Source: a virus (lineage: Duplodnaviria > Heunggongvirae > Uroviricota > Caudoviricetes). From it: a DNA stretch of 64,000 nt. The notes under the pieces were generated by a model, which saw nothing but the letters and a program-made list of their open reading frames with translations, made no database searches and was not told the DNA's origin. The position numbers were made by a program, and so were the translations under genes. The stretch lies in IMG/VR virus record IMGVR_UViG_3300029641_000003; one strand, given 5' to 3'. Below are positions 1,050 through 58,441 of the stretch, piece after piece (the stretch's first letter is position 1; each line of letters begins with the position of its first letter).

Positions 1050-1129
1050 GGTTAAACCCTAAATTCGGGCGCGGCGTGAAGATTCTTTTGACGAGGTGAC
1101 AATACTCACTTTGTTATTTAGTCAATAGC

Positions 1130-1193
1130 ATTAGAAAAATAATTTTCTTTAACAAAATCGTCATGTTGTGTTTTAATCTTAATTTTCTAACAC
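1130..1193. promoter_or_regulatory. operator-like half-sites ATTAGAAAAAT and ATTTTCTAACAC in divergent intergenic region
   Basis: Members of the TGTTAGAAAAT motif family, in inverted orientation, in AT-rich spacer between two divergent genes. Confidence 0.4.
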
Positions 1194-3718: not shown

Positions 3719-4513
3719 TTATGGTTCCTTTTTAGTGTTGCTTTGGAGCGCATCGATTACACCTTGTGGCATGATCAAACTGATTGCGGGACTCATTACT
3801 TCATCGCCCAGTAGAGAACCGGTTAACGTAATAGCTACAGCATTCTCCAGTCCCTGTTTGGCTTTTCCGGTAGAGTCCTTAACTTGCTGTGCAAGTGTTG
3901 AGAGACTACTGCTCGTGTTGTTTATTGCATTTATTTGTTCTGTTGCTGCTTCCACAGCGTCTTTTAGTGCTTTGATCTCTTCTTCTGTTAGTGCTGGTTG
4001 CTGTGTTGTTCCGGTGGAACTTCCGTTGCCTGAAGCCTCCCCGCTTGACGCCTGAACTTTTGCATTTATAGCGGTCATGGCTGAAGTGATTGGCTCCAGT
4101 TCAAATGCTGCCAACGCGTCAATAAGCGATTGCGGATGCAGGGTATCTCCCATAACTGTTACGAGAGCAAATTCTGGCGCAGGAGATAACTCATTACCTT
4201 TGACGTAACATTCCCAGCCAATTTTCATCTGAAGTAATTCAGTTGGCGAAGCATACGGAGACAGCGAGTCGGCTAAATTGGTTGCTTCTGCACTGACAGT
4301 TTTCAGTTGTTCTGAAAAGACAGAAAGCTGATTGACCCATGAAACCACCGACGCCGGGTATGCTTTATCCTTCAGGATAAGAGCCTGGATATTCTCTTCC
4401 AGAGAACTGGCATTGGATGACGCTGTTTTACTTAGCGTGATAGATGCAGGCGTAGTTGTACCTGATGCATTTAGAATTTTGAATGCGTTAACTTCAGCGA
4501 TTGAATCAAGCAT
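3719..4513 (-). CDS. hypothetical Ala/Ser/Thr-rich protein (264 aa)
   Basis: Start overlaps stop of upstream PAAR gene (ATGA), so co-transcribed; no recognised motif. Confidence 0.45.
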   Translation of the reverse strand: MLDSIAEVNAFKILNASGTTTPASITLSKTASSNASSLEENIQALILKDKAYPASVVSWVNQLSVFSEQLKTVSAEATNLADSLSPYASPTELLQMKIGWECYVKGNELSPAPEFALVTVMGDTLHPQSLIDALAAFELEPITSAMTAINAKVQASSGEASGNGSSTGTTQQPALTEEEIKALKDAVEAATEQINAINNTSSSLSTLAQQVKDSTGKAKQGLENAVAITLTGSLLGDEVMSPAISLIMPQGVIDALQSNTKKEP

Positions 4514-4797
4514 TATGACACCTGAAAAATTGCCTCACCATTGGCGATGACTGAGCCACAAGAAAGGGGATCTCCCACACAAACAACTCCTTTCCCGCCT
4601 ATTGCAAACCATGAGCGCGTCGATACGGCTGATCCGGGGTGCGCGCTATTTCCGTCTGTATGGCTGGGGAACGCTCCCCCATCTACAACTACTGGCTTTC
4701 CATTTACGGTAAACCAGGAAACTGTTTCTGCTACAGGTCGCGGAGGGAATCCTCCATGACCAGAACAAACTGTGTCACTGGTCGCTATTGCACTCAT
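4513..4797 (-). CDS. PAAR-domain spike-tip protein
   Basis: 94 aa with PAAR-like repeats: DTVCSGHGG, VNGKPVVVDGG, AIGGKGVVCVGDPLSCGS. Confidence 0.6.
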   Translation of the reverse strand: MSAIATSDTVCSGHGGFPPRPVAETVSWFTVNGKPVVVDGGAFPSHTDGNSAHPGSAVSTRSWFAIGGKGVVCVGDPLSCGSVIANGEAIFQVS

Positions 4798-10216: not shown

Positions 10217-10250
10217 TGTGTTAGAAAATAAAACTCAATTATCTAACACA
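10217..10250. promoter_or_regulatory. operator: inverted pair TGTGTTAGA(N16)TCTAACACA
   Basis: 9-bp perfect inverted repeat of the dispersed TGTGTTAGAAAAT motif, just upstream of the rdgC start. Confidence 0.5.
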
Positions 10251-21249: not shown

Positions 21250-21260
21250 TGTTAGAAAAT
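21250..21260. promoter_or_regulatory. operator half-site TGTTAGAAAAT
   Basis: Exact core motif at the head of the immI-like leader. Confidence 0.4.
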
Positions 21261-21835
21261 TAATTTATTAATTCAGTCACCATCTGATACAACGTCATTT
21301 CATCAGCATTGTGCCGCCTGAAATCTGCTTTGCCGCCTATTTTTCCATCAGCATGAACAGGGACCAACCAAGGGTATTGCTCGCGGATCTCTGCTGGCGC
21401 TGCGTGTTGATGGTGCCATTTACACAAAGGGAGGACGTATTTATGCGCGTTCTCTGCTGTTCTCCCGAAGATGTGGTGCAGGGATACCACAGGGCTATGC
21501 TGTCCGTGCATATGGCAGGCAATGCAGGGGAGAGCACCGATGGCAGTTTGTATCCGGCGCTCATCTGCTGTGAGTGTTCTGCCTTTCAGGCCGCGTGACG
21601 CGCGAGTTTTTTTGACAGGAGCAGAAGCGGCCTTCTCTTTTCTTCGCTGTTCATATTGCTTCGCTTTTTCAATTTTCTTTTGCCGATATTCAGGCGATGC
21701 GGCTTTTTCTCGCGCACGCTGCTGCTGGCGTTGAGCTTGCTGAAGACGCTTTGCCCTTTGTTCCTCCCGCCATTTCGGATCAGCCAGTTTTTGCAGGGCT
21801 TTTTGTGTCTGTTTCTCCCAATAGCTTTGCTTCAT
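21260..21835 (-). CDS. ref: Ref-like HNH endonuclease (track ORF extends to TTG at 21877)
   Basis: LPCIACHMHGQHSPVVSLHHIFGRTAENAHKYVLPLCKWHHQ HNH motif; Lys/Arg/Gln-rich N-terminus; start taken at ATG 21835. Confidence 0.7.
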   Translation of the reverse strand: MKQSYWEKQTQKALQKLADPKWREEQRAKRLQQAQRQQQRAREKAASPEYRQKKIEKAKQYEQRRKEKAASAPVKKTRASRGLKGRTLTADERRIQTAIGALPCIACHMHGQHSPVVSLHHIFGRTAENAHKYVLPLCKWHHQHAAPAEIREQYPWLVPVHADGKIGGKADFRRHNADEMTLYQMVTELIN

Positions 21836-21879: not shown

Positions 21880-21913
21880 TGTGTTAGAAAATCAAAATTG
21901 ATTTTCTAACACA
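21880..21913. promoter_or_regulatory. 34-bp near-perfect palindromic operator TGTGTTAGAAAATCAA-AA-TTGATTTTCTAACACA
   Basis: 16-bp arms are exact reverse complements; sits between ref and a divergent plus-strand operon. Confidence 0.55.
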
Positions 21914-31263: not shown

Positions 31264-32370
31264 TCACTCAATGATTTTTTCTGCTGTCAGCCAGCTAATT
31301 TCTTGCCTGTCTTTCGGCGGTTTTAGCATGTGGGCGTATTCAGCGACATTCTCCCACGGAATTGTTTTTGCCCACTCAACGATAGCATTGTGATCTGCAG
31401 TGAAGAGTGGAATGGTGTGCGATTTCAACCACTCTAATGTTGTAACGCCATGTTTTTTGGCGTGGTGCTGTGCATGATGCCGGGCTATCACTAGTAATGG
31501 CATTGTCCATTCACTACCATCATGCATCGTAAAGCGCATTGTTTTCGGCATATCTGATTCAAGAACAGCCTCCCGAATACCCGGGAACTCACCAAGAACC
31601 ATGCGACGGTAATCATCGCCGCTTTTACCACCATACATTTCTGCGATCCCATCAAGATAATCTTGAGTAAGCAGAGGTGATTCTTCTGCGTTCAGCTTGA
31701 TGGCAGTATAAATACCACATGGATTTTCTTCAGTTTTTGCACGACCATGATGGGAATCGTAAAAGTGTCCATGTTCCTCCTCTGGAGGAGCAGACGTCAA
31801 AAGTATACGTGAGTCGCCACTAACTAAAGATGCTCTTAACATCCCGAATAGCCGATAGCTTACCAGAGCCGCGTCCATAACAATGATCAAAAGATGTTCA
31901 GCATAATATCCGGCTACATCTTCCTCATAATTTAGGCGATATGGTTTAATTTCGCAGCCCCAAGATTTTTGGTAACGATGATTGAGGCCATTTTGGTCGA
32001 TTTGAAAATACTCTCCCAGTAATGGCGCTTTTGTATTAGCTTTCTCCCAATACATATTCATGAGTGAGAGAGTTACCATTCCATTACGCTCAAAGTCTGG
32101 AGCGACCATGACCGTTTTAGACTCAGGCATCAGGATCGTATAAAGGATACAAATGATAGCCATAGCAGACTTATGCCCTATCCCAGTCGGTGTGGTAACG
32201 CTGACTGCTGAACCTTTTTGTTGAATCGCCTCAACAATTAATTTTTGCTGGTGGGTTAACTTAACCCCCATCAACTCTTCTGCTGCTAATGCCCAGTCAT
32301 GGCTATATTTGCTTACCAGCTCTCTCCACTCTGGTAATTCGGTGATGTTTTTAGGCGTCAGCATCAGCAT
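31264..32370 (-). CDS. terminase large-subunit ATPase-domain paralog lacking nuclease domain
   Basis: Aligns by eye with N-terminal half of PacB (37719-39227): SVTTPTGIGHKS vs TVTSGHGTGKSS, LLTSAPPEEEHGHFYDSHHGRAKTEENP vs [27 protein letters not shown]; only 368 aa. Confidence 0.5.
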   Translation of the reverse strand: MLMLTPKNITELPEWRELVSKYSHDWALAAEELMGVKLTHQQKLIVEAIQQKGSAVSVTTPTGIGHKSAMAIICILYTILMPESKTVMVAPDFERNGMVTLSLMNMYWEKANTKAPLLGEYFQIDQNGLNHRYQKSWGCEIKPYRLNYEEDVAGYYAEHLLIIVMDAALVSYRLFGMLRASLVSGDSRILLTSAPPEEEHGHFYDSHHGRAKTEENPCGIYTAIKLNAEESPLLTQDYLDGIAEMYGGKSGDDYRRMVLGEFPGIREAVLESDMPKTMRFTMHDGSEWTMPLLVIARHHAQHHAKKHGVTTLEWLKSHTIPLFTADHNAIVEWAKTIPWENVAEYAHMLKPPKDRQEISWLTAEKIIE

Positions 32371-33157
32371 CCTCCGCTACCTCTGCTTCCACATCTGCCG
32401 CGACTTCATCGGACTGTTCTTCTTTGGCCTGTTCTGCAATCGCCGCACGGCATTTCGCCCTGGCTGTAGCGATAGCCTCAACTTTCACGTCATTAGGAAT
32501 ACTTGAGGTGACATACATATCCAGTTCTTCAGCACGGAATACTGTTTTGCCCAGGAATTCATCAAGCATCCAGGTTAAGGAAAAGTCGCAGGAAATCAGG
32601 TCTACTTCGCCTTCCGCGCCGTTTGGGAAATGGATAAATATCTGTTTGCCCAGGCCAAGCACGCGACAAGCAGCCATCATTACTGCAAGTTCCAGGTCTT
32701 TGTTTTCACCTGCTACTGGTTGATCCACACCAGTAATAGTGCCGTTCAAATGGATATTATATGGCTGATATTTAGAGATACGTTCTACACGCCATGTGCC
32801 GGTTAAGGTTCCCTGGCGGAAGATTATTGGCGTGACCGAAAGCGACAGCTCTCGAATGAGTTGTTGCGCTATGGCTGGGTCATACAGCGGATCTAACGCG
32901 ATGCATCCATAAGACTGCGCCAGTTCAAACAATTCTTCCTGTGTGCACTGAATGCCTCTTGCCGTAATAAAACGTCTGACTCCCGTTTTCCCATCACGCC
33001 AGATAGCAATGCCATTCTCACTATCTAACTCTTCGTCTAAGCCCAGGTATGTAAGGATGGTTCGCTCAATGGTGGCAAAGGGCAGGGACATATCATCGTT
33101 TACATCCACCAGCAGGCCATTACGCAGGCGATATTGAATGTTTTTGGTATTTTCCAC
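32351..33157 (-). CDS. hypothetical protein with acidic C-terminal tail
   Basis: 268 aa; overlaps next gene by 20 nt. Confidence 0.4.
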   Translation of the reverse strand: MENTKNIQYRLRNGLLVDVNDDMSLPFATIERTILTYLGLDEELDSENGIAIWRDGKTGVRRFITARGIQCTQEELFELAQSYGCIALDPLYDPAIAQQLIRELSLSVTPIIFRQGTLTGTWRVERISKYQPYNIHLNGTITGVDQPVAGENKDLELAVMMAACRVLGLGKQIFIHFPNGAEGEVDLISCDFSLTWMLDEFLGKTVFRAEELDMYVTSSIPNDVKVEAIATARAKCRAAIAEQAKEEQSDEVAADVEAEVAEDADADA

Positions 33158-33163
33158 GTTAAA

Positions 33164-33826
33164 TCACTCCACAACAAACCAGTCACAGGCCAGCAGGTCG
33201 CCAACTGAAGGCACCCACGGAACAACTACACCTTGTGCATTTTTTAAGGCGAAATAAGCACCATACGGAACGAGGTCGCCGGGGAAATATCCCTTAATGG
33301 CTTCCATTCGTGCCGGGTACTGTCCTTCAGGAACCAGCCAGCAGAATTGGTTTTCGCCGTTCCACCCACGTCGGGCAACTTTCTTGCCATCCTTCAGCCA
33401 CATCAGCGCGTCAGAAAAGTCGGCTGCTTCAAGGTCGATTTCTTCTTGTAGAGTAACGATACCGCCAGCAGAAATAGTTACGTCCCTGGCTGTAATGAAT
33501 GTCACCCCATTGTGACCTTCAATGCTGAGCGATACCCCATTTTCGGAGGCGTCGTTAACCCGGCTATAGCATTTTTCAAATGCTTTCTCTGGCACATAGA
33601 CCAGATAGCCATTTTCAGCAGTGACGAGATATCCTCCTATTTGCGGTCGGAATTTTTCCAAGAACACACCATCAACACGAAGCGTCATTCCTTTTGGCTC
33701 AACGACTTCGATACTGCCAAAAATGGGCGCATAAGCTTCGCCGACAATAACAATATCTTTGATTTTCGATGCCCGAATGATGCTGTGGCATTTGTATTTG
33801 GGGAACACCTGAAAAGTGCTGACCAT
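33164..33826 (-). CDS. two-domain protein with C-terminal DUF2829 (Tad2-like) domain
   Basis: C-terminal ALMWLKDGKKVARRGWNGENQF...VPWVPSVGDLLACDWFVV fits DUF2829 signature as recalled; N-terminal 130 aa unassigned. Confidence 0.5.
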   Translation of the reverse strand: MVSTFQVFPKYKCHSIIRASKIKDIVIVGEAYAPIFGSIEVVEPKGMTLRVDGVFLEKFRPQIGGYLVTAENGYLVYVPEKAFEKCYSRVNDASENGVSLSIEGHNGVTFITARDVTISAGGIVTLQEEIDLEAADFSDALMWLKDGKKVARRGWNGENQFCWLVPEGQYPARMEAIKGYFPGDLVPYGAYFALKNAQGVVVPWVPSVGDLLACDWFVVE

Positions 33827-33840
33827 AATCCTTCCTCTAC

Positions 33841-34335
33841 TTAAAACTTTGCGTACTGAAGCGGTGTACGCTTGATTTCAACGCGGCCTTCCGATGTGCT
33901 ACCAAAGCCACCAGCACCTCGCTCTGTTTCATCGAGTTCATCAACTTCTACCAGCGATACCGGTTCAACACGCTCAAAAATGCCTTGCATGACCGCCATT
34001 CCTGGCTTAAGGCAAACGCCTTCACCACCGGGATCTGTAATCAGTTTTGCCATGATTTCACCGCGATAATCGGAGTCGATAATTCCTACGCAGTTAGCCA
34101 GGCGCGTATGCTTTTTGCAGCCCAATCCGGAACGAGGATAAAGTTTCAGACACCAGCCAGGAGGGATCGCCATAGCGAGGCCGGTATGCACCCACCAGCT
34201 TGAGGAAATAGCGCCGTTGCTATCGATACCCGGCGTTATTTCAACAGCAACAAAATCCATCGCCGCCGATCCGGCGGTGGCGTAAACGGGGAGTTTTGCC
34301 GCCGGATGAAGGCGTTTCACTTTCACGTTAATCAT
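33841..34335 (-). CDS. dut: dUTPase
   Basis: AGSAAMDF, PRSGLG, GIIDSDYRGEI, GGFGSTS motifs of trimeric dUTPase. Confidence 0.85.
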   Translation of the reverse strand: MINVKVKRLHPAAKLPVYATAGSAAMDFVAVEITPGIDSNGAISSSWWVHTGLAMAIPPGWCLKLYPRSGLGCKKHTRLANCVGIIDSDYRGEIMAKLITDPGGEGVCLKPGMAVMQGIFERVEPVSLVEVDELDETERGAGGFGSTSEGRVEIKRTPLQYAKF

Positions 34336-34820
34336 TGCTTTTTAGCTCTCCGGGTAAATGTATAAATCCGGCGTTTGATATGCGGAGCGGTCGGAACGGA
34401 GACGCAGGTATTCTCGATAACACCTTGTTCCTCCAGCGATCGCACAGCACGCAAGAACTGTGATGCATCACCACCGCCAGACAGCCAGAATTTGCGGGCA
34501 TAGACGCTGCCATTACGGATAATTTCTGCGATCACCCGCGCTTGCGTCTGGCTTTCTCGATAGCCAAAGAGTTCTCTTGCCTCTCCTTGTGGGATAGCCA
34601 ACTGATAGCCTTTCCCGCTACGGTGACGAACAAAACCGTGAGCAATGAGGTTCTTCAGCTCATTTCTGGTGCGGATACACCCGTACTCAGGGAACTGTAT
34701 GTTGATATCACCAGGCTTATGCCATTCATCAGGACTATCAGCCAGGAGGGACAGAAGTTTCCCTGACAGCTCAGGATTAGTGGTTGGATAACAGTTCAGG
34801 GATGGGTAGTAAGTTTTCAT
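34332..34820 (-). CDS. hypothetical protein (162 aa)
   Basis: Coupled ORF in operon downstream of cre. Confidence 0.4.
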   Translation of the reverse strand: MKTYYPSLNCYPTTNPELSGKLLSLLADSPDEWHKPGDINIQFPEYGCIRTRNELKNLIAHGFVRHRSGKGYQLAIPQGEARELFGYRESQTQARVIAEIIRNGSVYARKFWLSGGGDASQFLRAVRSLEEQGVIENTCVSVPTAPHIKRRIYTFTRRAKKQ

Positions 34821-35161
34821 TTGCGCCCCCTTGCCGGATAGCGCCCGGCATTCGCATCAGGGGCAATGAAGCCGCTGGTGGGGCGAGTGAAAACATGGTT
34901 AATTTTCTCGGTCATAGCGCGATAATTTTCCTGATAGTGGGCCAGGAGTTTTTCAGCAGCAATGACGGTTACTTTCCGGACGTAGCGTTCAGCTTCCTCC
35001 AGATTTCGCCAGTTTTTTTCGAGGGTAAATACGGGAACGGCATCAAGTCCGGTCATAACACCGAACACCACGACCGCCTGGTCGCGCTTAACGCCCGCAG
35101 TGAAGGTTATGGTGTAACCGTCAACAGTGAAGCGTTTTGATTCCGTAATACGATTGTGCAA
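34817..35161 (-). CDS. hypothetical protein (114 aa)
   Basis: First gene of operon, behind operator half-site at 35219. Confidence 0.4.
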   Translation of the reverse strand: MHNRITESKRFTVDGYTITFTAGVKRDQAVVVFGVMTGLDAVPVFTLEKNWRNLEEAERYVRKVTVIAAEKLLAHYQENYRAMTEKINHVFTRPTSGFIAPDANAGRYPARGRK

Positions 35162-35218
35162 AGTACCCTCCGCAATAGGCGAGGGTACTTTACATTAAAA
35201 TGCACTGTCTAAAAAGAT

Positions 35219-35229
35219 TGTTAGAAAAT
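35219..35229. promoter_or_regulatory. operator half-site TGTTAGAAAAT
   Basis: Exact core motif between cre stop and start of downstream operon. Confidence 0.4.
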
Positions 35230-35233
35230 TAAT

Positions 35234-36262
35234 TTATGAATCCATCAGGCGACTATTTGCACCAACGGATGCCCCGCTACGGCGCAAATATCGCATAAGT
35301 GTTTCGGGCTTTTTCCATGTGCCTTCCTGCATGATCTCGACCATTGACACCTGTTTCTCAGCCATATCAATTGCCGCACCAACACGCGCACTATGGCCTG
35401 TCCACGTCCGGTATCTTCCTTTGTTCGGCGTGGCATCTCGTTTGTTCAGCAACCCCCAGGCATCGCTGAATATTTTCTCCATTGCAGGTGCAGTAAGGGG
35501 CGTTGTCGTGATTCTGGCCTTATTACTGCGGTGTATTGGCGGGAATAGCACCGCGTCCGGATGTTCTCGAAGTCCGGACACCTCCAGCCAGTCGTTCAGT
35601 ACGGCGGTAGTGTAACGAGAAAGCACCTTATCAAGTCCGGCGGCGGTCGTGATGGTCTTCGTGTGTGAAATATGCAGCGTTACAGTGTCACCTGTTTGGT
35701 CCAGATCTCCGACGCGGATGCGCGAGATTTCTGACATACGCATCAGGGTATTGTATGCCACGAAGAGAAACGCCCGATTGCGCAGGTCCACCAGCCGCTC
35801 GGAACGGGACAGCAACACGTCGAGCAATTTCAGATCATCCCACCGCAACGGTATAGCCTGGCCTGTTCGCTCGCCTTTTTCCGTTGCCGCTTCGCGCCGG
35901 ATGCGCCGCATGGCCAGAGACACACTTTTATCGTCCGACAGCGGCGGGAGGCCACATTGCGAAAGCAGCATGTTAAGCATGGCATAGTGCTTATCAATGG
36001 TGGTCGAAGCCAGATCGGCCTCATGCAACTGGAGAAGATACTCGCGGGCCATTTCCGGCGTAATCGGGAACCAGGGGCGCTGGCGCGAGTTACACCACCG
36101 CGCCCAGGAATGAAACACCAGACGGAGATCACGAAGTGTATTTGGGGCATAAGCTCCCTGGTCGTTCATGAACTGCATAAAGTTTTTTGCAGCTTCCTGG
36201 TATTCGGTGCCAATATCGCGCAGAAAACCACCAGAACCGCCGGAGATAACTAGTTCACCCAT
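35234..36262 (-). CDS. cre: Cre-like tyrosine site-specific recombinase
   Basis: 342 aa; aligns by eye with recalled P1 Cre along the length (WFPITPE, NTLMRMSEISRIRVGDL, HSARVGAAIDMA, MQEGTWKKPETLMRYLR) at roughly 40 percent identity. Confidence 0.85.
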   Translation of the reverse strand: MGELVISGGSGGFLRDIGTEYQEAAKNFMQFMNDQGAYAPNTLRDLRLVFHSWARWCNSRQRPWFPITPEMAREYLLQLHEADLASTTIDKHYAMLNMLLSQCGLPPLSDDKSVSLAMRRIRREAATEKGERTGQAIPLRWDDLKLLDVLLSRSERLVDLRNRAFLFVAYNTLMRMSEISRIRVGDLDQTGDTVTLHISHTKTITTAAGLDKVLSRYTTAVLNDWLEVSGLREHPDAVLFPPIHRSNKARITTTPLTAPAMEKIFSDAWGLLNKRDATPNKGRYRTWTGHSARVGAAIDMAEKQVSMVEIMQEGTWKKPETLMRYLRRSGASVGANSRLMDS

Positions 36263-36413
36263 GAAACTATTAAACCTCTATATACAGATAACGCTACGTG
36301 AAAAATAGAAAACTGACAGGGTAGTTATAAGTTAATTTTCAAAATTCAAGCCTTTGATTCGAGGCATGATTTTTCATCCTTGTCAATACTGCCTGTTTAC
36401 TGGTGATTATAGC

Positions 36414-36447
36414 CTAACTTTAAATAATGCCAATTATTTAAAGTTAG
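36414..36447. other. lox-like recombination site (34 bp)
   Basis: CTAACTTTAAATA-ATGCCAAT-TATTTAAAGTTAG: perfect 13-bp inverted arms, 8-bp asymmetric spacer, 150 bp upstream of cre; 9 of 13 arm positions equal to loxP. Confidence 0.65.
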
Positions 36448-36530: not shown

Positions 36531-36626
36531 ATTTTCTAATAGGAACAATCAAAAAAAAGCGGTTTTATCCTTTACTCACCTTGTTATTCAGCATAAATTT
36601 GTCACAGGACTTTTATGTTAGAAAAC
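36531..36626. promoter_or_regulatory. operator pair flanking promoter of the c1-position gene
   Basis: ATTTTCTAATA (36531-36541) and TGTTAGAAAAC (36616-36626) in inverted orientation. Confidence 0.45.
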
Positions 36627-36643
36627 TAAATCGAGTAGGAATA

Positions 36644-41047: not shown

Positions 41048-41078
41048 AAACATGATGTATTAGAAAATTAATATTAAT
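41048..41078. promoter_or_regulatory. operator pair TATTAGAAAAT ... AATTTACTAACAC
   Basis: Inverted motif-family half-sites upstream of lpa-like gene. Confidence 0.45.
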
Positions 41079-41087
41079 TTACTAACA

Positions 41088-43682: not shown

Positions 43683-44995
43683 ACTTGCCGGGTACGTCTC
43701 CGGCGAGGGCTTCCACCTCCGTATGCTTTTCGGCGCACCGCGCCCTGGCTGCAATTCGGTAACAGGGGATGCACAACCCTGGCTTCCAGCGTGATTAGCG
43801 CCTTCAGCATGACGGGATATACCCGTTACAAGACATTATTCCAGAAAGCCATTAACCAATGGCTGTTACGCGGAAAGGACGTAACAGGTAAGGGCGCTGA
43901 CCAGAAAGACCTGACCCTTCTCATTCATCTGGTTAATCACACCAGCGCCCTTGCCTGTTATGCCTCCCCGTTCCCTAATACACAGACGGGGACACTCTGC
44001 GGTCGATTTTTTGACGGGGGACGACTCATACCCCGTGGTGTCAGGCTTCTTAGGCCGCTACCATCATCAGATCATCGTTTGCATTTACTTTAATGGTCGG
44101 GTTCTAAACCGCCGCAAAGTCGCTAACCATGACGAAAACACTGAAAAAACACCCACCCGAAGGTGGGCAAATATCCCACTCGCGGTATTGCCACTTAGGC
44201 GTATGGTCAACCTGGCAACTCGGTGTCCTCAACGGGGAAGGAATAACCCCGCCATACTTACCGCCGCGCCTGTCGCGGTTATCGCTACGTATCAACATAA
44301 AAGCCGACTGCCTGAGCAAGATTCACTTTCAAAGGCCCGCAGAAAGGAATCCATAGTCGGCTTTTATCTTGAAGCGGCTCTCTCTCCGCCCGTCACCGCT
44401 CTGTCTCGGTTGTCACGTTTGCCACGCCAGCCGTAACGAGGTTTAAAGTCTTTGCACGTTTCCATCACTCGACTGCCGTCTGTGGCTGTTCGTTGCAGCG
44501 GGGGTGCCTCCCCCTGGGGATATCCCCGGCCTTACCCCATTCTTTCAAGACACAATGCAAGGCCACATCCGCATAGGTGCATTACCGCAACGTTAAGGAG
44601 ACTCAGAGTCAGCAAAATAAGAGGAAAACCCAACTCTGCGCCTCCTTAACGTTGAGGATGTGCACTGATGATGACCCGATGCAGCCTGGCCCACTTAACA
44701 TACTCACTGCCAGATCATCATCAATGAACACCATAAAAAGACCTTCCGTGGCTCAAGTCACTGTCGTTTACTCCGTAAAATGCTCTCGCTGAAACCACTT
44801 TACGCACTAAACCTGCCGGGCATGTATTTGCACGGTGCCGGAGCTTTCCCTTACCTTAAAATTTACTTTCTAACACTTAAATTTGTTTGATGCTGGTGGG
44901 GAAAGACAATGAAGTGACTATCAAACCCGCAAGCGACATGGGAAGCTCCCCACCAGCACGAAAAATTCTATGTTAAGTTAACCCCATAATCAATA

Positions 44996-45027
44996 TGTTA
45001 GAAAAACAATTTTAATTTTCTAACATA
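44996..45027. promoter_or_regulatory. operator: inverted pair ATGTTAGAAAA(N10)TTTTCTAACAT
   Basis: 11-bp perfect inverted repeat; another half-site TTTCTAACAC at 44867-44876. Confidence 0.5.
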
Positions 45028-46236: not shown

Positions 46237-46260
46237 GTTTGTTCCCTTTCTTGAAATTAG

Positions 46261-46270
46261 TTTTCTAACA
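46261..46270. promoter_or_regulatory. operator half-site TTTTCTAACA
   Basis: 25 bp upstream of start of 45028-46236. Confidence 0.4.
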
Positions 46271-48235: not shown

Positions 48236-51200
48236 TTAGGCCGCATCGGCGATTATTTTACGCAGTTCATCTACCGAGTAACGCGTAGATACCATCCATG
48301 CCGGACGGTCAAAGTTCACATCAGCAACCGGGTTTGCTTCAAAATTCCAGAAACGCCCGCCAATCTTCTTAATCGCGTCTTTGGCGTTTCGTATTGTCGA
48401 GGAACCAGGTTGGTCGGCAATGAGATAAACCGCGCCAACGTCCTCGCTGACGCTCCACCAGCGCCCGCGAACACGCGCCTTAGCGCGAATCGGCTTATCA
48501 TTAACCACAATGATATAGTCATCATTCGCCGCTTCATCAGCTCTGGCTTCAGCCACTGCCGCCTGCTCTTCTCTTTTGCTTTCAGCCTGTTCAAGCCTTT
48601 CCGCGATCTCTGATTCGGTGGCCCCGCCGTTTTTCAGCGATACATAGTCTTGCCACGTAGCTGATTTGAGCGCATCCGGCAACTCATTCACATAGTCACC
48701 GTCTTTCAACTCACGGGCGCGGCGGGTAGCCATTTCTACCAGGCGATTAACAGAAACAGCATCAGCAAAATCGTCCTTACTAATTTTTTCATCAAATGCA
48801 TTGATGACAGCCCCCACCTTAATCCACTGTGCTGCCGGTGATTCCAGGGGGTTATCAGCCTGGACTATGGCGAGTTTCGCTCCATCTACCCCATTATTCG
48901 CCAGCTGTTCCAGTGCCGCCCATCCATCTGCATCACTGAGTGATTTATATTGCTCAAACAATGCATCGCGCCAGGCCACCAGCGCAGAACGTGTTTTTTC
49001 GATCTTCGTCTTAATTTTCGCGATCTTGACCTGATTAAACATCCGTTCAATATCATCGATATTGCTAAAGGCTTTCATCCTGCCCTGGAATAAACGGTAT
49101 GCCAGCACGGTCCTCCAGAATGATTCCAGACCTTCTCCGGACGGTTTGCGGAACAAGCTAAGAATATCTTCAGAAGTGACTTTATTAAGCGAACGACCTG
49201 ACAGACCACGCCCAGCCATCCAGTTTTCGAACTCCTGGGCAACATCATCCATCGTTGCCTGTGCGCCCCATGCCTGCATTCCCTGGATGTAATCATACCC
49301 ATACAATGCCTGGAGGAATCCCTCACCGTCCACGATATTCAGCGGGTTATCACTGGCTTGTATTTTTGCCACTTCACGCTTCAGCGCCTCATCGTTGCCA
49401 TCTGGATATATCCATCGTTCAGGTGCTATATCCGATGCTCGCCCGATTTTTTGGCCTATCACGCCATCATAGGCCGATGACAGCGCGATCTGACCATCAT
49501 CTGTGCGATATGCCCAGTATTTAATAGCTGACCCACCGCCCCATGCATTACCAGGTTTACCAGCAATAACATTCATTACCCCATTGCGAATAGCATCATA
49601 GAACTGATCGCGAGTAAGTATTGTTGATAGCTGGTGGCACTGAACACCACGCGCAGCCGTTGCGCGCGATTCAGCTACCCCCTCTTCAAAAGTTACCGCT
49701 TCAATCACAGAGTCAAACGGCAATGTAACGATTGACCCCGGTGATCGAGCGTAACGACTTGCTCTATCCAGCCAGGCGATACGGCAGAGGTATTGTGCTT
49801 TTTCACCGTCAATTTTTTCCACCCGGACAATCGCTGTTGTTTCGCGATCATCAATGACTGCACGGTAATAACTACCTTTATGCAACAGGATATTCTTGTC
49901 AGTGCGCATATATTCCTGTGGGTTCTGAATAACATCGATACTGATATCCAGCACACCAGACTTAATAGCGCGCTCCACATCACCACGAGAGCGTTTCATT
50001 ATGGTATCCGCGTCTTTTGCCCTGGTGATCGCAAACCGCAGCACCCGCGCACGTTTTCTGTAGCTACTCAACTGCTCAAGCGCGAATTTTTGCCCATTCC
50101 TGTTCGTACCCGCTTTTATCAGGTCGTCAAGATTTCGCTGGTAATACTCTATCTGTTCCATCGCGCTTTTCAGTTCTGTCTCCATCATGCCGATATCTTT
50201 TCCAGCGGCGTTTGCCGCTTTCAGGTAGATATCGAGAGCATTGTTGGCCTCGCGCTGTGCTTTCAGTTTCAGACGTTCTTCACGCTCTTGCGCCTGGCGA
50301 GCCATGATTGCGCGGCGTTCTTCCGGGTTTGCCGCCAGCATAATGGCGCGTTCATCAGCATCATCCGCATCACCATTGGCGATCTCTGACATGTCGGAGG
50401 TCATCACCATCTTGATCCAGTCTTTCTTACGTTTCAGCGTATCCAGACGGAAGTCGTCGAATGTGCCTTTGCCACAATAGTAGTGAACATTGACCTTCTC
50501 TTGCGGTGAACCTACGCGCGCACCGCGCCCATTTCGTTGGTCGATACTGGCTGGTGTCCAGGGTAGTGTCAGGTGGTGGATATCGGTTGTCCCGATATGC
50601 AGGTTAATACCTACTTCAGCCTTCTTGTTACAGATAATGATGCGCGTGCGCCCTTCGTTATAGTCGGCGGCAATGCCTTCCATACCCTCAAGGCCAGCAT
50701 CATTTTTAGCTGAGAGATAATCCTCATATTGGGCAAGTTTGCTGTAGTAGGTTTCCCATGCCCCTTCTTTGTATTCACCGTTTTTATTCGGAGTAGGTTC
50801 AGTCGGCTTATTCACCTTCTTCAGCTTGATGCCGCCAGCCTGGCTAACGGTCGTCGCATTGATAATGCCTATCTCCTGCTCCGGCATTTGCAGTGCACTG
50901 GCGATAATACGGCGCAGCTTCTGGTGCTGGGCTTTTTCATCAATGAAGACAATTTGTTTACCGTTCTTCAGACCTTCACGAAGGTTTTCGATCAGCGCGG
51001 CATACTTCGGCGGGATGGGGTGTGATACCTGCTGCAGATCAATCCCGGCGGCAGCAATGGCCTTCAGTATTTCAGCTTCCAGTTCAATGCTGGCGCGTAT
51101 TTCAACATGCACCGGATGTTCACTAAAGGTGGTCTTCACTACCTTGCTGGTACGTGTATTGACCAGTCCACCAGCGCCGTCTTCTTCGACCTCGTCTGCA

Positions 51201-54200
51201 TCATCTGCCACTTTACCGCCAGCTACTTTTGGCAGGGCATCAGCAATAGCTTTTACCTTGTCTGCAAGCTCAACGGGGAACTGGAATGTAATCGCACTGG
51301 CATACAGATCCGGATCTATAGCAACCTTATCCATGTCGCGGATGATGGAGAAGATGAAATCATCCGGTTTTTCGTTTGTGATATGCCCGTTTTCATCAAC
51401 CGTCAGCGCATCTTTACTACTTAACTCCTGTGCACGCTTACGAAGTTCTTCATAAGCAGCCTCCTGCTCCCCTGTCATCGGGATCTGCAAGGTATTCTCG
51501 ACAATATCAGGGATTTTAACCGTCGCCCCGACGTCCGCAGCAGTCTTCAGAGTAGTCCAGCGATGGAAAATACCACGCAGGCCATCAAGGTTCTGGAAGC
51601 CAACCAGCCCCTGCTTCTCTTCCACTTCCCCGGAAATTTTCTGGACCTGAACTGTGGCTGTTTTACCAAACACACGAACGAAATCATCAGGCGTAATGAT
51701 GCCCATGCGCATCCACTCTTCCTGCGGAATGACAGTAGACAGCATGTTGAAGGCATCAATCGGACTGTTCACCAGCGGTGTTGCCGTCAGCATGACTACA
51801 CCACGCCCGTTGTTGCGTTTCATCATGTACGCAGCTTTTACAGCCATGTCGCGGGCCATCTTGGATACTGCCGGGTTAGGCAAATATGCCAGTTGTCCCG
51901 CTTCACGCCCGGCATTAAAGGAGTTGCGGTAGTTATGCCCCTCGTCGGCAATCACGCTATCGAAGTTCATATCCTCAAAGTACGGGATATTCTGCTTCTT
52001 CGTTGTACCGGTATTCGCGGCCTGATCCTTAATCTTGTTCTTCTTCTGCGCATCACGGTGTTTACCAGACGCCAGGTCAAGACGCCCCATTTCCACAGCA
52101 TTAAAGACAGCTTGCTGTGAGTTCTCCTCGATGGTTTTTTCTCGTAGCGGGATAGACGCGAATTGTTCTTTTGTCATGATGACCGTTCGCCAATTTGACG
52201 ACGGGATCATGTTCATGCGCTGAACGATAACGGCGCTGGCGGACTCTTTCACAACATTTCTGGTAAGAGGCTGCCCGTTACTGTCGAGGCGGGGTTCGCC
52301 ATTTTCATCAAGCACCGGCGCGGTCAGAATATTGCCGTCTTCATCACGAACCTCATCCAGACCGATAAACATCATATTGGCGAAGGCATCAGCACTGTAG
52401 AAGCTCTGTGCCTCGTGATACCAGTTCTGATAAACCGCCTTCGGAACAACAATACACGTGCGTTTAGTGCGACCTGTTTCGAAGTTATACGCCTCAAGCG
52501 CAAGCGCAGTCGTGGTTTTACCCAGCCCGGTACCAAATCCCATGATGCCGCGCCCATCTTCTGACAAGCGACGAACTTCTTCATTCTGATAAGTCAGAGG
52601 AATGCGCTTTCCACTAATCCCTTCCAGGCCAAGCGGTGCGTTAGAGTGCGTAAACGGAATGAAGCCATTGAATGCGTCGTTATAGTCACGGGCTATCTGA
52701 TCCGCCTGCGGGTGGGTGCGTAACCAGTCGTTAAAACTAACTTCCAGTTGAGCAATTTTATCCAGGTACTCGTTAGCGTTCTGCCCACGCGGTTTAACAC
52801 CGTTCAGGTAGTTTTCTAACTGGTTCAGGAAGCCGTCTTTATTGTTGGCCTTCTTGAACTCATTCCCGTTTTTGCCGTTTACGGTTCGTAGTTGATAGCC
52901 GGTAAATACCCCGTCCTTACCTTCGTAATCGTCCGGAGATACCAGAATGCCATCGACGACCTTCAGATCAGGTTCAGTGTACTTAAACTCGTCATAGCCC
53001 TGCTCTGCCAGGAACTCTTTTATCAAGCGGCGATCCAGCCAGCGGGCGTTCAGATTAACGGTGACTTTATTTAGTGGCGTGAAAATGCGTTTCTCTTCGA
53101 TTTTCGCCAACTGACGCTCAAAGTTCGCTTTCTGCTCACCTGTTGACGCATCACGCCAACCCACCAGCAATGTTGTTTTGGTTGCAATATCGCCGCTGGT
53201 GGCGCGGTCCATCGGCAGCAGGCAGCCATACCCATCAATAGCGATATCATCAAATTTCGCCAGGTATTCAAGGGCCGCGTCGTCGTCCTCTGGCAGTTCA
53301 CCAGCAAACGCCTCACGAAAGTCGCCCAGCGTTATAGGATTAAGGGCTACATCACTGAAAAGATGTGCTATCACTTGTTCAGGACGTGTAAAGTCAATAC
53401 CGGCAGCACCATCCGTTACATCAAGTCGCCCTGCCAGAAGGTCAGAAGTGGAACCATCCTGTTTCACATTGCCAGTGAACGTCATCCAGTTTTTAGCGCC
53501 AGCTTCTGCAAGCCCATTCAGCTTAATCGCGTGCGGTGGTCCATACTTCGCAACTTCTGCTGCCGCCAGGCGGGATGCATCTGCCAGTTTGTCATCAACG
53601 TTCACCCCCAGGTTACGCAAATCAAGTGCCTTGTTGATCAACTGCCCTATCAACGCACCGCGCATAACGCGCTCCCTGTCTTTTTCTCGCTGTTTGCCAG
53701 CAAAGCGAATCATTGCTGCCACTTCATCACTGACAACCGATGGATAGTCGGACGCGATCGCCGATATCTGGTCCCATGACAAAGCCAGAATCCCGTTTGT
53801 TGACTGGAACGCGATCTGCAGATCGCCAAACGTCGAAACACCATATCGACTTACATCAAGCGCGGAGGATTTGGTTGTCGTGTCCTTAACCCATTTCAGA
53901 CCATCAAACTCATGCCAGATACCGCCTACAAGGCGTTTATCGCCCACTTTCGCGCCCTGCCATGCCTGAGTAGTTACGCCGAGCAAATCCCAATTGATGC
54001 GACTATCAAAGCGACGAGATAGCGCGGTTTTCATCGACTCATTGGATACACGACCGTCTTTTTTCACCACCAGGGTATTGCGGAAGCTGGTGCGTTCCAT
54101 GTCGCCGTAAACAAATCGCTTCCCTTCGGTTGTAAACCATTTCCCTTTGAGGAAGGTATCCCAAAGGACGTTTGCCGATTTGAGCGTTGCATCATCCGTG

Positions 54201-57196: not shown

Positions 57197-57226
57197 ATTA
57201 GAAACATCAATTTAATTTTCTAACAT
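57197..57226. promoter_or_regulatory. operator pair ATTAGAAACAT ... TTTTCTAACAT
   Basis: Inverted motif-family half-sites at head of immI-like copy 2. Confidence 0.45.
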
Positions 57227-58412: not shown

Positions 58413-58425
58413 TGTGTTAGAAAAT
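58413..58425. promoter_or_regulatory. operator half-site TGTGTTAGAAAAT
   Basis: Exact 13-bp motif between pro-like stop and RepL-like start. Confidence 0.45.
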
Positions 58426-58441
58426 TAAGCTATCTTTTAGC

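What the first reader, a model, noticed from the sequence alone, without database searches (positions are those of the whole stretch)
33164..33826. DUF2829 (Tad2-like) domain fused to an unknown N-terminal domain
The C-terminal 90 aa (ALMWLKDGKKVARRGWNGENQF...VPWVPSVGDLLACDWFVV) fit the DUF2829 signature as I recall it. That family includes Tad2, a phage protein that sequesters Thoeris signalling nucleotides. Here it is fused to a 130-aa N-terminal domain and sits in an operator-controlled early operon with dut and a terminase-ATPase paralog. This is a candidate anti-defence protein with a novel architecture.
Basis: partly seen in the sequence, partly recalled or inferred. Interest (0 to 1): 0.6.

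Follow-up and report, generated by a model that had tools for sequence, protein, structure and literature searches.

The report
Tad2 immune-signal sponge with Dec-like domain
This gene of a D6/P1-type phage-plasmid encodes a genuine Tad2-type "sponge" that most likely soaks up bacterial Thoeris alarm molecules, which is already known for these elements; the new lead is that its N-terminal half is a small domain related to a phage capsid-decoration protein, and that domain repeatedly occurs fused to other anti-immunity modules.

Summary

The architecture is not novel. More than 60 database clusters share it, PHROG 872 covers it, and a 2025 survey already reports Tad2 in 93% of D6-like and 56% of P1-like phage-plasmids.

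The N-terminal part is not unknown. Residues 1-92 form an OB-fold homologous to the phage L decoration protein Dec (profile E 7e-7). They belong to a family of about 4,000 small phage proteins with no Pfam annotation. Family members are fused to Tad2, Sequestin, Acb4, Acb2/Tad1 and gp5.9 domains, and one sits between stand-alone Tad2 and Acb4 genes.

Best reading: an early-expressed Thoeris-signal sponge plus an accessory module that may itself act against host defence. The Tad2 part is ordinary; the N-domain lead is moderately interesting.

The parts
33164..33826 (-). Whole gene: 220-aa OB-linker-Tad2 protein (stop codon 33164-33166)
   Evidence: ORF list; Pfam PF11195 at E 1.6e-22; PHROG 872 at E 2.9e-52 over residues 3-220
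33551..33826 (-). Residues 1-92: Dec-like OB-fold domain (b0-b1-b2-b3-aOB-b4-b5-a2)
33440..33550 (-). Residues 93-129: beta-rich variable linker (ENGVSLSIEGHNGVTFITARDVTISAGGIVTLQEE)
   Evidence: pLDDT below 50 in the monomer model. Two main alleles reassort independently of the flanking domains. It is absent or replaced in distant homologues.
33167..33439 (-). Residues 130-220: Tad2-like (DUF2829) sponge domain, including the conserved junction IDLEAADFSDALMWLK
33830..33837 (-). Ribosome-binding site GAGGAAGG, 4 nt upstream of the ATG
   Evidence: Read directly from the sequence
33841..34335 (-). dUTPase gene immediately upstream (14-nt gap)
   Evidence: PF00692; NCBIfam dut at E 5e-34
34332..35161 (-). 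Two overlapping upstream genes of unknown function, equivalent to D6 orf116 and orf117 (phrog_6669, phrog_1968)
   Evidence: 4-nt overlaps suggest translational coupling
35219..35235 (+). Exact copy of the 17-bp operator-like motif TGTTAGAAAATTAATTT in the dre/orf117 intergenic region, 58 bp upstream of the orf117 start
   Evidence: 17 matches in the window (3 mismatches or fewer) against 0.36 expected. A 1-mismatch copy lies at the same place in D6. The 3' nine bases are identical to the P1 C1 operator Ossb/Op21, ATTGCTCTAATTAATTT.
35157..35194 (.). 14-bp inverted repeat (10-nt loop) overlapping the orf117 start; possibly the dre terminator or an attenuator
   Evidence: I10; conserved in D6; function not tested
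32351..33157 (-). isaA-like gene directly downstream (6-nt gap)
   Evidence: phrog_2326 at E 2e-124. Homologous to P1 IsaA and D6 orf113. Always adjacent to the Tad2 gene in SJ46, D6 and this window.
31264..32370 (-). Last gene of the operon: 368-aa paralog of the PacB (large terminase) ATPase domain
   Evidence: tblastn: 37% identity to P1/SJ46/RCS47 PacB over residues 4-270, and 48% to a second copy in some P1 variants; phrog_5902
35234..36262 (-). Dre (Cre-like) tyrosine recombinase gene heading the gene block
   Evidence: PF00589 and PF02899; 83% nt identity to D6 dre
36414..36447 (.). rox recombination site (15-bp perfect inverted arms, 4-bp spacer), overlapped by a near-consensus promoter (TTGGCA-16-TATAAT, 36433-36406, minus strand)
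   Evidence: I2; D6 annotation of a rox half-site. This palindrome is a recombinase site, not a repressor operator.

Best explanation
The gene encodes a cytoplasmic anti-defence sponge of a D6-like, P1-type phage-plasmid of E. coli. It is transcribed with orf117, orf116, dut, isaA and a PacB paralog from a promoter region that carries a C1-type operator. It should therefore be silent in the plasmid-prophage state and switched on early after infection or induction.

The C-terminal Tad2 domain is inferred to assemble, like the solved Tad2 proteins, into a homotetramer whose inter-subunit pockets bind and sequester TIR-made ADP-ribose-derived alarm molecules. The Thoeris effector ThsA would then never be activated. 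The closest characterised relative is ModTad2, which binds His-ADPR (type II Thoeris) and, in a second pocket, cUMP/cCMP (Pycsar). His-ADPR is therefore the first guess for the ligand, with 3'cADPR the second.

The N-terminal Dec-like OB-fold and the linker are accessory. They are not needed for the Tad2 fold, since D6 itself and a dUTPase-Tad2 deletion derivative lack them. They belong to a large family that travels with sponge and inhibitor domains, so the most likely role is a second, independent binding module directed at another host defence component.

Shown: domain identities, fold, residue conservation, purifying selection, operon and operator anatomy, and the fusion/neighbourhood statistics. 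Inferred: oligomeric state, ligand, timing of expression, and any activity of the N-domain.
For: Tad2 membership:
- Pfam E 1.6e-22.
- Foldseek top 24 hits are all Tad2 structures.

Ligand residues. SPO1 Tad2 contacts its ligand through W25, N26, W73, S76 and D79 (paper 10.1101/2023.05.01.538930). These align to W155, N156, W204, S207 and D210. W155, W204, S207 and D210 are invariant across 31 full-length homologues.

Selection. The Tad2 module has dN = 0 at dS = 0.14-0.16 against both SJ46 and D6.

Regulation. An exact operator motif lies upstream (17 copies against 0.36 expected), is conserved in D6, and shares 9 of 17 contiguous bases with P1 Op21. In P1-type genomes Op21 controls the ssb operon, which is where SJ46 carries the orthologous gene. 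In Klebsiella phage SopranoGao the orthologue follows a regulator gene in the early region.

Precedent. Tad2 fused to other sponge domains (Acb4, Sequestin) is functional (10.1101/2025.07.12.664507).

N-domain association with anti-defence. Among the top 142 family representatives, the fused Pfam domains are Sequestin PF21825 (13), Tad2 (11), Acb4 PF13876 (3), Acb2/Tad1 hairpin (2) and T7 gp5.9 (1). Phage LASTA carries OB-X-Sequestin at the locus where its sister phage carries OB-Tad2. A stand-alone member sits between stand-alone Tad2 and Acb4 genes.
Against: - No binding, oligomerisation or phage-protection data exist for this protein or for any OB-Tad2 fusion.
- Tad2 specificity cannot be read from sequence. 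Tested homologues bind 3'cADPR, His-ADPR, N7-cADPR, cUMP/cCMP or cyclic dinucleotides, and about a quarter of tested sponge homologues inhibited none of seven systems (PMC12393519).
- The secondary contact residues differ from SPO1 Tad2: T65>N196, D67>Q198, H71>V202, T78>G209.
- An N-terminal fusion abuts helix alpha1, which forms the tetramer interface in SPO1 Tad2, and its effect on assembly is unknown.
- No sigma-70 consensus promoter was detected next to the operator.
- The window's N-domain departs from its family consensus at about 8 of 26 highly conserved positions (K15S, Y70A, D72N, S76V, S78V, G86C and others). It is deleted in D6, so it may be decaying rather than functional here.
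- The only characterised homologue of the N-domain, Dec, is a capsid protein, not an immune antagonist.
Confidence: 0.65

Rival explanations
1. The protein is a Dec-like virion protein. The N-terminal OB-fold would bind the capsid (outside as a decoration, or as a targeting signal for packaging). The beta-rich linker would form a trimeric stalk as in Dec. The Tad2 domain would be displayed on, or carried in, the particle.
For: The N-domain is homologous to the capsid-binding OB-fold of phage L Dec over its whole length (E 7e-7, co-linear positions 12-92), with the same secondary-structure order. As with Dec residues 90-134, the segment after the OB-fold is unstructured in the monomer model. 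In Ralstonia phage GP4 a stand-alone family member lies between the portal and major head genes. P1-type phages are known to package anti-restriction proteins (Dar system, established knowledge; universally present).
Against: - The gene lies in an operator-preceded operon with dut, or next to ssb in SJ46, and not in a head module.
- Four of five metagenomic contexts sampled and the Lastavirus context place family members among small genes away from head genes; a fifth (L011) lies ~3 kb from a portal gene.
- Most family members (82-100 aa) lack any stalk.
- The linker has no Phage_fiber_2 match, unlike my recollection of the Dec spike, and is absent in distant homologues.
- A trimeric stalk joined to a tetrameric Tad2 would be symmetry-mismatched.
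- A sponge on the outside of a capsid has no obvious use.
Confidence: 0.1
2. The N-terminal domain has no function of its own in this lineage. It would be a decaying or neutral appendage (or a mere solubility or oligomerisation tag), and the protein would work exactly like a stand-alone Tad2.
For: - D6 orf114 is an in-frame deletion that removes the OB core.
- P0054 (15 sequences, 4 contigs) removes the OB core and fuses dUTPase directly to the linker-Tad2 part.
- The window's N-domain has lost about 8 of 26 family-conserved residues.
- The N module evolves with dN/dS of about 0.45, against 0 for Tad2.
Against: The OB-linker-Tad2 form is by far the commonest allele (clusters with 453, 389, 197 and 140 members). 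The N-domain is still predicted to fold confidently (pLDDT 87). dN/dS of 0.45 indicates continuing constraint. The same N-domain heads different cargo domains in unrelated phages, which argues for a selected role.
Confidence: 0.15
3. The protein acts as an anti-CRISPR of the AcrIIA7 type rather than as an immune-signal sponge.
For: AcrIIA7 proteins are DUF2829 members and appear among the PDB hits (8KBI at E 3.8e-10, 9KZR). DefenseFinder labels the family 'Tad2 AcrIIA7'.
Against: HgmTad2/AcrIIA7 itself binds gcADPR and cyclic dinucleotides (PDB titles 8KBJ and 8KBK). The Tad2 authors argue that the family is anti-Thoeris rather than anti-CRISPR, and Cas9 binding was never shown. E. coli and Salmonella hosts lack type II CRISPR-Cas (established knowledge).
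Confidence: 0.03

Closest known systems
ModTad2 / MoTad2 (Myroides odoratus prophage Tad2; PDB 9EIB, 8V3E)
   Different: ModTad2 is an 89-aa stand-alone protein, whereas this protein has 129 extra N-terminal residues. ModTad2's ligands (His-ADPR, cUMP/cCMP) are untested here.
SPO1 Tad2 (gp34.65; PDB 8SME/8SMF/8SMG)
   Same: Same Pfam family and fold. The principal gcADPR contacts W25, N26, W73, S76 and D79 are conserved as W155, N156, W204, S207 and D210.
   Different: Only 34-38% identity. The secondary contacts differ (T65N, D67Q, H71V, T78G). SPO1 Tad2 has a shorter alpha2 region with the F44 stack that closes the second pocket.
Fused sponges: Acb4-Tad2 (Pasteurella phage Pm86), Tad2-Sequestin and Acb4-Sequestin (Tal et al. 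2025, 10.1101/2025.07.12.664507; Fedorova et al. 2026)
   Same: Tad2 is joined in one polypeptide to another small phage domain. Close relatives of this protein carry Sequestin (PF21825) after the Tad2 domain (P0061, P0072, P0081).
   Different: The partner here is not a known sponge. It is an OB-fold with no Pfam family, so it could not have been found by the Pfam-based fusion screen that discovered Sequestin.
Phage L decoration protein Dec (PDB 6E3C)
   Same: The N-terminal OB-fold is homologous (profile E 7e-7; 25-28% identity). The order b0-b1-b2-b3-aOB-b4-b5-a2 is identical, and the shared motif is PxxGGYL...G.L.Y....AFE..Y. It is followed by a segment that is disordered in the monomer.
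   Different: Dec is a 134-aa capsid-binding trimer with no Tad2 domain. The gene here is in an early-type operon, its linker is unrelated in sequence to the Dec spike, and capsid binding is untested.
SJ46 J46_0048, Ro157c2YLVW DUF2829 protein, D6 orf114, SopranoGao gp55 (annotated phage orthologues)
   Same: SJ46 and Ro157c2YLVW are 80-81% identical over residues 5-220, with a 100% identical Tad2 module, and have the same neighbour, isaA. SopranoGao gp55 has the same architecture at 42% identity.
   Different: In P1-like genomes the gene follows ssb rather than dut. D6 orf114 has lost the OB core. P1 itself lacks the gene entirely, with ssb followed directly by isaA. The window's N-module is a distinct allele, 53% identical to that of SJ46.

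Membership tests
Tad2 / DUF2829 (PF11195) sponge family | Significant match to the family profile above the curated threshold | tested here: met
   80.2 bits against a cut-off of 25, E 1.6e-22, profile positions 2-73 of 73
Tad2 / DUF2829 (PF11195) sponge family | [quoted passage not shown] | tested here: met
Tad2 / DUF2829 (PF11195) sponge family | Conservation of the ligand-pocket residues of SPO1 Tad2 (W25, N26, W73, S76, D79) | tested here: met
   They align to W155, N156, W204, S207 and D210. Four are invariant in 31 homologues; N156 is K in one allele group. The secondary contacts T65, D67, H71 and T78 are substituted.
Tad2 / DUF2829 (PF11195) sponge family | Homotetramer with pockets at protomer interfaces | not testable with these tools
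   Only monomer prediction is available. The N-terminal fusion abuts helix alpha1, which forms the tetramer interface.
Tad2 / DUF2829 (PF11195) sponge family | Binds and sequesters, without cleaving, a TIR- or cyclase-made signal and thereby abolishes defence | not testable with these tools
   Requires biochemistry and phage assays. The nearest tested homologue is 45-50% identical.
Dec-type capsid decoration proteins | Dec-type OB-fold with detectable sequence homology | tested here: met
Dec-type capsid decoration proteins | C-terminal three-stranded beta-helix spike that trimerises | tested here: inconclusive
   Residues 93-129 are beta-prone and low-confidence in the monomer model, as is the Dec tail. 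However, they have no Pfam match, are hypervariable and are absent in distant homologues. No multimer modelling was possible.
Dec-type capsid decoration proteins | Encoded and expressed with the head genes; binds mature capsids | tested here: not met
   The genomic context is an operator-preceded operon with dut (or ssb in SJ46), not a head module. Capsid binding itself is not testable here.
Multi-sponge fusion proteins (Acb4-Tad2, Tad2-Sequestin) | Two domains, each belonging to an experimentally validated sponge family | tested here: not met
   Only the Tad2 domain belongs to a validated family. The N-domain matches no Pfam or NCBIfam model, and Dec is its only PDB relative. It does not fit the description of Lockin, which is a hexameric cog absent from INPHARED phages, whereas this domain is found in INPHARED phages.

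The most novel reading that the evidence does not exclude
The N-terminal Dec-like OB-fold would represent a large anti-defence family that has not been recognised. It has about 4,000-4,700 clusters, mostly stand-alone proteins of 82-100 aa with the signature PxYxCHKxVxAxKI...KHxPxxGGYxVxYxDGYxSxSPxxFExGY. It would be either a new signal sponge or a protein inhibitor of a host sensor. Phages would combine it in modular fashion with Tad2, Sequestin, Acb4, Acb2/Tad1 and gp5.9 domains. Under this reading the window's protein would be a dual-action antagonist, and Dec would be a capsid-binding offshoot of the same fold.
Probability: 0.3. Interest if true: 0.75.

Novelty: new variant of a known kind. 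Interest (0 to 1): 0.45.

Why it matters
The Tad2 part matters little on its own. It adds one more member to a well-studied sponge family whose presence in D6/P1 phage-plasmids has already been catalogued.

The value lies in the partner domain. The logic that uncovered the Sequestin sponges was to look for what is fused to known sponges. Applied without the restriction to Pfam families, that logic singles out this OB-fold. It is fused to five different anti-defence domains, it heads interchangeable sponge cargo in sister phages, and in one case it lies between stand-alone Tad2 and Acb4 genes.

That gives a cheap, direct experiment: clone stand-alone members and OB-only truncations against panels of signalling defence systems. 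The result could add a new family of several thousand proteins to the phage counter-defence repertoire. It also links that family to the only solved relative, the capsid decoration protein Dec.

For P1/D6 biology, the results show that the locus is a cassette-shuffled, operator-controlled anti-defence gene that the laboratory strains P1 (gene absent) and D6 (OB deleted) do not represent.

Tried and rejected
- P1 C1 operator consensus ATTGCTCTAATAAATTT: 0 matches in the window at 3 mismatches or fewer. The D6-type motif had to be derived from local repeats.
- The perfect palindrome upstream of dre was considered as the 'operator' and rejected. It is the rox recombination site.
- The single-sequence database search with the N-domain returned only 4 proteins. 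Profile searches were needed.
- The top hits of the N-domain profile to proteins of 2,000-4,500 aa are Big_9/cadherin adhesin repeats that share a GGY...DG.Y motif. I judged them spurious.
- The N-domain was checked against the recently described sponge families Lockin, Sequestin, Acb5, TadIV-1 and the RyR-like Tad. None of the descriptions fits, and no such structure appears among the PDB fold hits.
- The BFVD fold search of the N-domain found only uncharacterised viral proteins.
- NCBIfam names none of the operon proteins except dut.
- The net charge and pI of stand-alone members (median pI 5.6) gave no functional hint.
- An attempt to check whether the 18 Tad2 proteins tested in PMC12393519 include this clade failed, because no supplementary files are held.
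- The mafft --add alignment of N-domains to the family alignment misaligned the C-terminal third. Conserved-position counts were therefore taken from the direct alignment and by eye.
Full report
1. THE OBSERVATION

Window 33164-33826 holds a 220-aa ORF on the minus strand. The plus-strand translation is broken by stops. The ATG is preceded by GAGGAAGG, and only 14 nt separate it from the stop codon of the upstream dUTPase gene.

Pfam-A gives one hit: PF11195 'Tad2-like' (formerly DUF2829). It covers residues 136-219 and profile positions 2-73 of 73, with E 1.6e-22 and 80.2 bits against a gathering score of 25.

2. WHAT THE WINDOW IS

The 5.5 kb around the gene is 82% identical at nucleotide level to Escherichia phage D6 over 71% of its length. 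It contains the same gene order: dre (Cre-like recombinase), orf117, orf116, dut, DUF2829 gene, isaA-like gene. The rox site lies upstream of dre, and humD/phd/doc lie downstream. The nearest protein homologues (97-98% identity) come from E. coli contigs of 83-92 kb. The element is therefore a D6-like, P1-type phage-plasmid of E. coli.

3. THE C-TERMINAL DOMAIN

Sequence and fold. Against PDB sequences the best matches are:
- Myroides odoratus prophage Tad2 (ModTad2, 9EIB/8V3E): E 6e-20, about 45% identity.
- HgmTad2/AcrIIA7 (8KBI): E 3.8e-10.
- SPO1 Tad2 (8SME): E 6.5e-9.
- SptTad2.

Ligand residues. The SPO1 Tad2 paper names W25, N26, W73 and D79 as the main gcADPR contacts. S76, T78, I63, T65, D67 and H71 are secondary or water-mediated contacts. 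In the HMMER alignment the PDB chain is offset by one residue from the paper's numbering. With that offset every residue named in the paper falls on the right letter. The mapping is:
- Main contacts and S76: W155, N156, W204, D210 and S207 (conserved).
- Other secondary contacts: G209, L194, N196, Q198 and V202 (substituted).

W155, W204, P206, S207 and D210 are invariant in 31 full-length homologues.

Selection. Codon comparison of the Tad2 module with SJ46 and with D6 gives dN = 0 at dS = 0.14 and 0.16. That is strong purifying selection across two phage-plasmid lineages.

Membership in the Tad2 family is therefore met on every criterion that can be computed. Tetramerisation, ligand binding and defence inhibition cannot be tested here.

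4. WHICH LIGAND

ModTad2 does not inhibit type I Thoeris. It sequesters His-ADPR, the type II Thoeris signal (bioRxiv 10.1101/2024.01.03.573942). It also binds cUMP/cCMP in a second pocket, at the interface that binds cyclic dinucleotides in HgmTad2 (PMC12393519).

The same study shows that Tad2 homologues vary widely in specificity (3'cADPR, His-ADPR, N7-cADPR, Pycsar signals). About a quarter of all tested sponge homologues hit none of seven systems.

The window's domain aligns to ModTad2 with a single one-residue gap through the beta2-beta3/alpha2 insertion that creates that second pocket. A ModTad2-like specificity is therefore the best guess, but no more than a guess.

5. THE N-TERMINAL 129 RESIDUES

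Structure. The model resolves a confident domain (residues 1-92) and a low-confidence segment (residues 93-129). A second model of residues 1-96, built on 107 sequences, gives mean pLDDT 86.6 with elements H4-7, E10-12, E16-28, E36-41, E48-52, H53-59, E66-69, E75-78 and H80-86.

The linker. In Dec the residues after the OB-fold are disordered in the monomer and form a trimeric beta-helix spike on capsids. The window's linker is likewise beta-prone and low-confidence. However, it has no family match, exists in two unrelated alleles, and is missing in distant homologues. I leave that analogy open.

6. HOW COMMON THE ARCHITECTURE IS

The first database search found 127 proteins. More than 60 of the 120 listed clusters cover at least 96% of the query at 31-98% identity and lengths of 178-280 aa. 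Clusters hold up to 453 member sequences, from E. coli, Shigella, Salmonella, E. albertii and Enterobacter contigs of about 80-100 kb. They are named 'DUF2829 domain-containing protein' or 'Thoeris anti-defense Tad2 family'. PHROG 872 spans both domains.

Among isolated phages:
- SJ46 (J46_0048) and vB_EcoM-Ro157c2YLVW carry it at 80-81% identity.
- Klebsiella phage SopranoGao carries it at 42% identity.
- In RCS47 it is interrupted.
- The annotated SJ46 protein (281 aa) starts 56 codons too early. The real product matches the 225-aa clusters.
- P1 itself lacks the gene: ssb is followed directly by isaA.
- D6 orf114 is an in-frame deletion that joins residue ~20 to the linker and removes the OB core.
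- P0054 is a dUTPase-Tad2 fusion created by a deletion between two 'AGG' stretches.

A 2025 preprint that screened 1,592 P1/D6 sequences with DefenseFinder reports 'Tad2 AcrIIA7 (anti-Thoeris)' in 93% of D6 and 56% of P1 elements (10.1101/2025.09.12.675607). The 'novel architecture' claim is therefore not supported. No paper in the searchable library discusses the N-terminal domain.

7. MODULAR EVOLUTION

Per-module identities to the window protein are uncoupled:

| Homologue | N-domain | Linker | Tad2 |
|---|---|---|---|
| P0010 | 99% | 54% | 100% |
| P0012 | 100% | 92% | 71% |
| P0014 | 53% | 92% | 100% |

 The gene is thus a three-cassette mosaic whose breakpoints coincide with the domain borders. 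The junction peptide (E)IDL(E/D)AADFSDALMWLK(E/D)GK is nearly invariant, even where everything upstream differs.

The Tad2 alleles differ mainly in the beta2-beta3 insertion. One allele also changes GWNG to EWKG, which alters the residue equivalent to N26.

The N module shows dN 0.33 and dS 0.73 against SJ46. It is constrained, but far less so than Tad2.

8. THE WIDER FAMILY OF THE N-DOMAIN

Size and form. A profile search of 1.84 billion cluster representatives found 4,699 proteins at E of 1e-3 or better, and 2,111 at 1e-10 or better. A second profile search of the 5.8-billion-sequence collection found 3,915. Nearly all of the best 120 are stand-alone 'hypothetical proteins' of 82-110 aa with no Pfam domain. 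The family signature is PxYxCHKxVxAxKI ... KHxPxxGGYxVxYxDGYxSxSPxxFExGY. The few giant hits are Big_9/cadherin adhesins and were judged spurious.

Fusions. Pfam scanning of the 142 best non-giant representatives found these partner domains:
- crAss001_48/PF21825 in 13.
- Tad2 in 11.
- Phage_gp49_66/PF13876 in 3.
- Acb2_Tad1_hairpin in 2 (for example P0231, E 5.6e-16).
- T7 gp5.9 RecBCD inhibitor in 1 (P0229, E 4.9e-14).

PF21825 is the Sequestin sponge family and PF13876 is Acb4. Tal et al. discovered Sequestin precisely by asking which Pfam families are fused to Tad2 and Acb4 (10.1101/2025.07.12.664507). Every recognisable partner of the N-domain is therefore a validated anti-defence module. 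The N-domain could not have surfaced in that screen because it has no Pfam model.

Genome contexts:
- At the locus where SopranoGao has OB-Tad2, its sister phage LASTA has OB, an unknown domain and Sequestin.
- In a 66-kb metagenomic podovirus-like contig, a stand-alone member lies in a run of small genes between a stand-alone Tad2 and a stand-alone Acb4.
- Three other metagenomic contexts are clusters of small genes; one of these includes a Lar-like restriction-alleviation gene and NinG. A fourth (L011) lies about 3 kb from a P22-type portal gene.
- One Salmonella phage context lies among DNA-metabolism genes.
- The counter-example is Ralstonia phage GP4, where the gene lies between portal and major head genes, next to a CsrA-like moron.

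The BFVD fold search returned only uncharacterised viral proteins.

9. REGULATION AND OPERON

Operon structure. From orf117 to the PacB paralog the genes overlap or are separated by 14 nt or less, so they form a single transcription unit.

Operator. The P1 C1 operator consensus is absent from the window. A 17-mer found as a local repeat, TGTTAGAAAATTAATTT, occurs 17 times at 3 mismatches or fewer, against 0.36 expected, often as overlapping inverted pairs like bivalent P1 operators. An exact copy sits at 35219-35235, between the dre stop and the orf117 start. D6 has a 1-mismatch copy at the same place. Its last nine bases, AATTAATTT, are identical to those of P1 Ossb/Op21, ATTGCTCTAATTAATTT. 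In P1-type genomes Op21 controls the ssb operon, which is exactly where SJ46 carries the orthologous gene. This supports 'operator-controlled, early'. It is still an inference, because no consensus promoter was found beside the operator and the repressor was not examined.

Other elements. The palindrome at 36414-36447 is rox, not an operator. It is 37% identical to PacB over residues 4-270, and 48% identical to a second copy present in some P1 variants.

10. MECHANISM, RIVALS AND VERDICT

Best explanation (confidence 0.65). The protein is an early, repressor-controlled sponge. Its Tad2 domain tetramerises and sequesters TIR-derived ADP-ribose signals, with His-ADPR the first guess and 3'cADPR or Pycsar nucleotides possible. 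The Dec-like OB-fold is an accessory module.

Rivals:
- A Dec-like virion protein (0.10). This is favoured only by the homology and the GP4 context.
- A functionless or decaying N-domain (0.15). This is favoured by the D6 and P0054 deletions and by about 8 substitutions at 26 family-conserved positions in this allele.
- An AcrIIA7-type anti-CRISPR (0.03).

The most novel reading not excluded is that the N-domain family is itself a new anti-defence family (probability about 0.3).

Overall, the Tad2 call is correct but already known for these elements. The architecture is common rather than novel. The worthwhile product of the analysis is the identification of the partner domain and its consistent association with counter-defence modules.

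Noticed in passing
window 1129-1192, 10219-10248, 21250-21266, 21882-21911, 35219-35235, 36616-36632, 41058-41087, 44859-45025, 46254-46270, 57209-57225, 58415-58431: The 17-bp motif TGTTAGAAAATTAATTT occurs 17 times (0.36 expected), often as overlapping inverted pairs. It is probably the operator set of the D6-type C1 repressor. It shares its 3' nine bases with P1 Op21 but has a different 5' half, consistent with heteroimmunity.
   Followed up: partly
window 31264-32370 (-): A 368-aa paralog of the N-terminal ATPase part of the PacB large terminase closes the Tad2 operon. D6 lacks it, and some P1 variants carry a 48%-identical copy elsewhere. Large terminases are known triggers of several defence systems, so a truncated paralog in an anti-defence operon could be a decoy. 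This is pure speculation.
   Followed up: partly
window 32351-33157 (-); L005 4570-5532 (P1 isaA): The isaA-like gene is the constant downstream partner of the OB-Tad2 gene in SJ46, D6 and this window, and follows ssb directly in P1. Its function is unknown (phrog_2326). The annotated P1 IsaA and SJ46 J46_0048 share the same 56-aa N-terminal extension (VVQTPTKARTRK...). This suggests over-extended start codons or a small conserved leader ORF after ssb.
   Followed up: partly
P0054; L001 4247-4687 (D6 orf114): There are two independent natural deletions of the OB-domain. D6 orf114 joins residue ~20 to the linker. P0054 (15 sequences, 4 contigs) fuses dUTPase, minus its C-terminal motif V, to the linker-Tad2 part through an 'AGG' microhomology.
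   Followed up: yes
homologues P0012, P0030, P0048-P0053: One Tad2 allele group in P1/D6-like elements has GWNG changed to EWKG, so the N26-equivalent contact becomes Lys. It also has a much shorter beta2-beta3 loop. This is a likely specificity switch within one gene family in one host range.
   Followed up: no
L006 2486-3361 (Klebsiella phage LASTA); P0058, P0132, P0133: A second unannotated small domain (W[RK]KKPVVIEA...GDWII.G.KGE.YPCKPDIF.ATYEP) recurs between the OB-domain and Tad2 or Sequestin. A third (AFLEAWRKAE.LA.[DE]YSHSLPEG.ER...) recurs in P0133, P0135, P0138 and P0139. Both are further candidate anti-defence modules by the same fusion logic.
   Followed up: no
L009 6319-8445 (JGI metagenome contig Ga0502774_0000280): A run of small genes upstream of the terminase holds stand-alone Tad2, a 137-aa unknown, the stand-alone OB-family protein, three unknowns and a stand-alone Acb4. 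It looks like an anti-defence island.
   Followed up: partly
window 36414-36447 and 36406-36433: A perfect rox site (TAACTTTAAATAAT-GCCA-ATTATTTAAAGTTA) is overlapped by a near-consensus sigma-70 promoter (TTGGCA-16-TATAAT) reading into dre. This is analogous to loxP and the cre promoters in P1.
   Followed up: partly
window 35157-35194: A 14-bp inverted repeat with a 10-nt loop, conserved in D6, overlaps the TTG start of orf117. It could terminate dre transcription or occlude the orf117 start.
   Followed up: no
BFVD hit A0A384WK77 (Vibrio phage vB_VpaS_KF6, 394 aa) and tblastn hit H61: A 'putative MazG pyrophosphatase' of a Vibrio phage contains an OB-family-like fold, and the same phage has a Tad2-like match near the genome start. 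Whether these are one multi-domain protein was not checked.
   Followed up: no
window 48236-55084 (-): A 2,282-aa ORF, by far the largest in the window. It was not examined. In P1-type genomes an ORF of this size would be expected to be darB-like.
   Followed up: no
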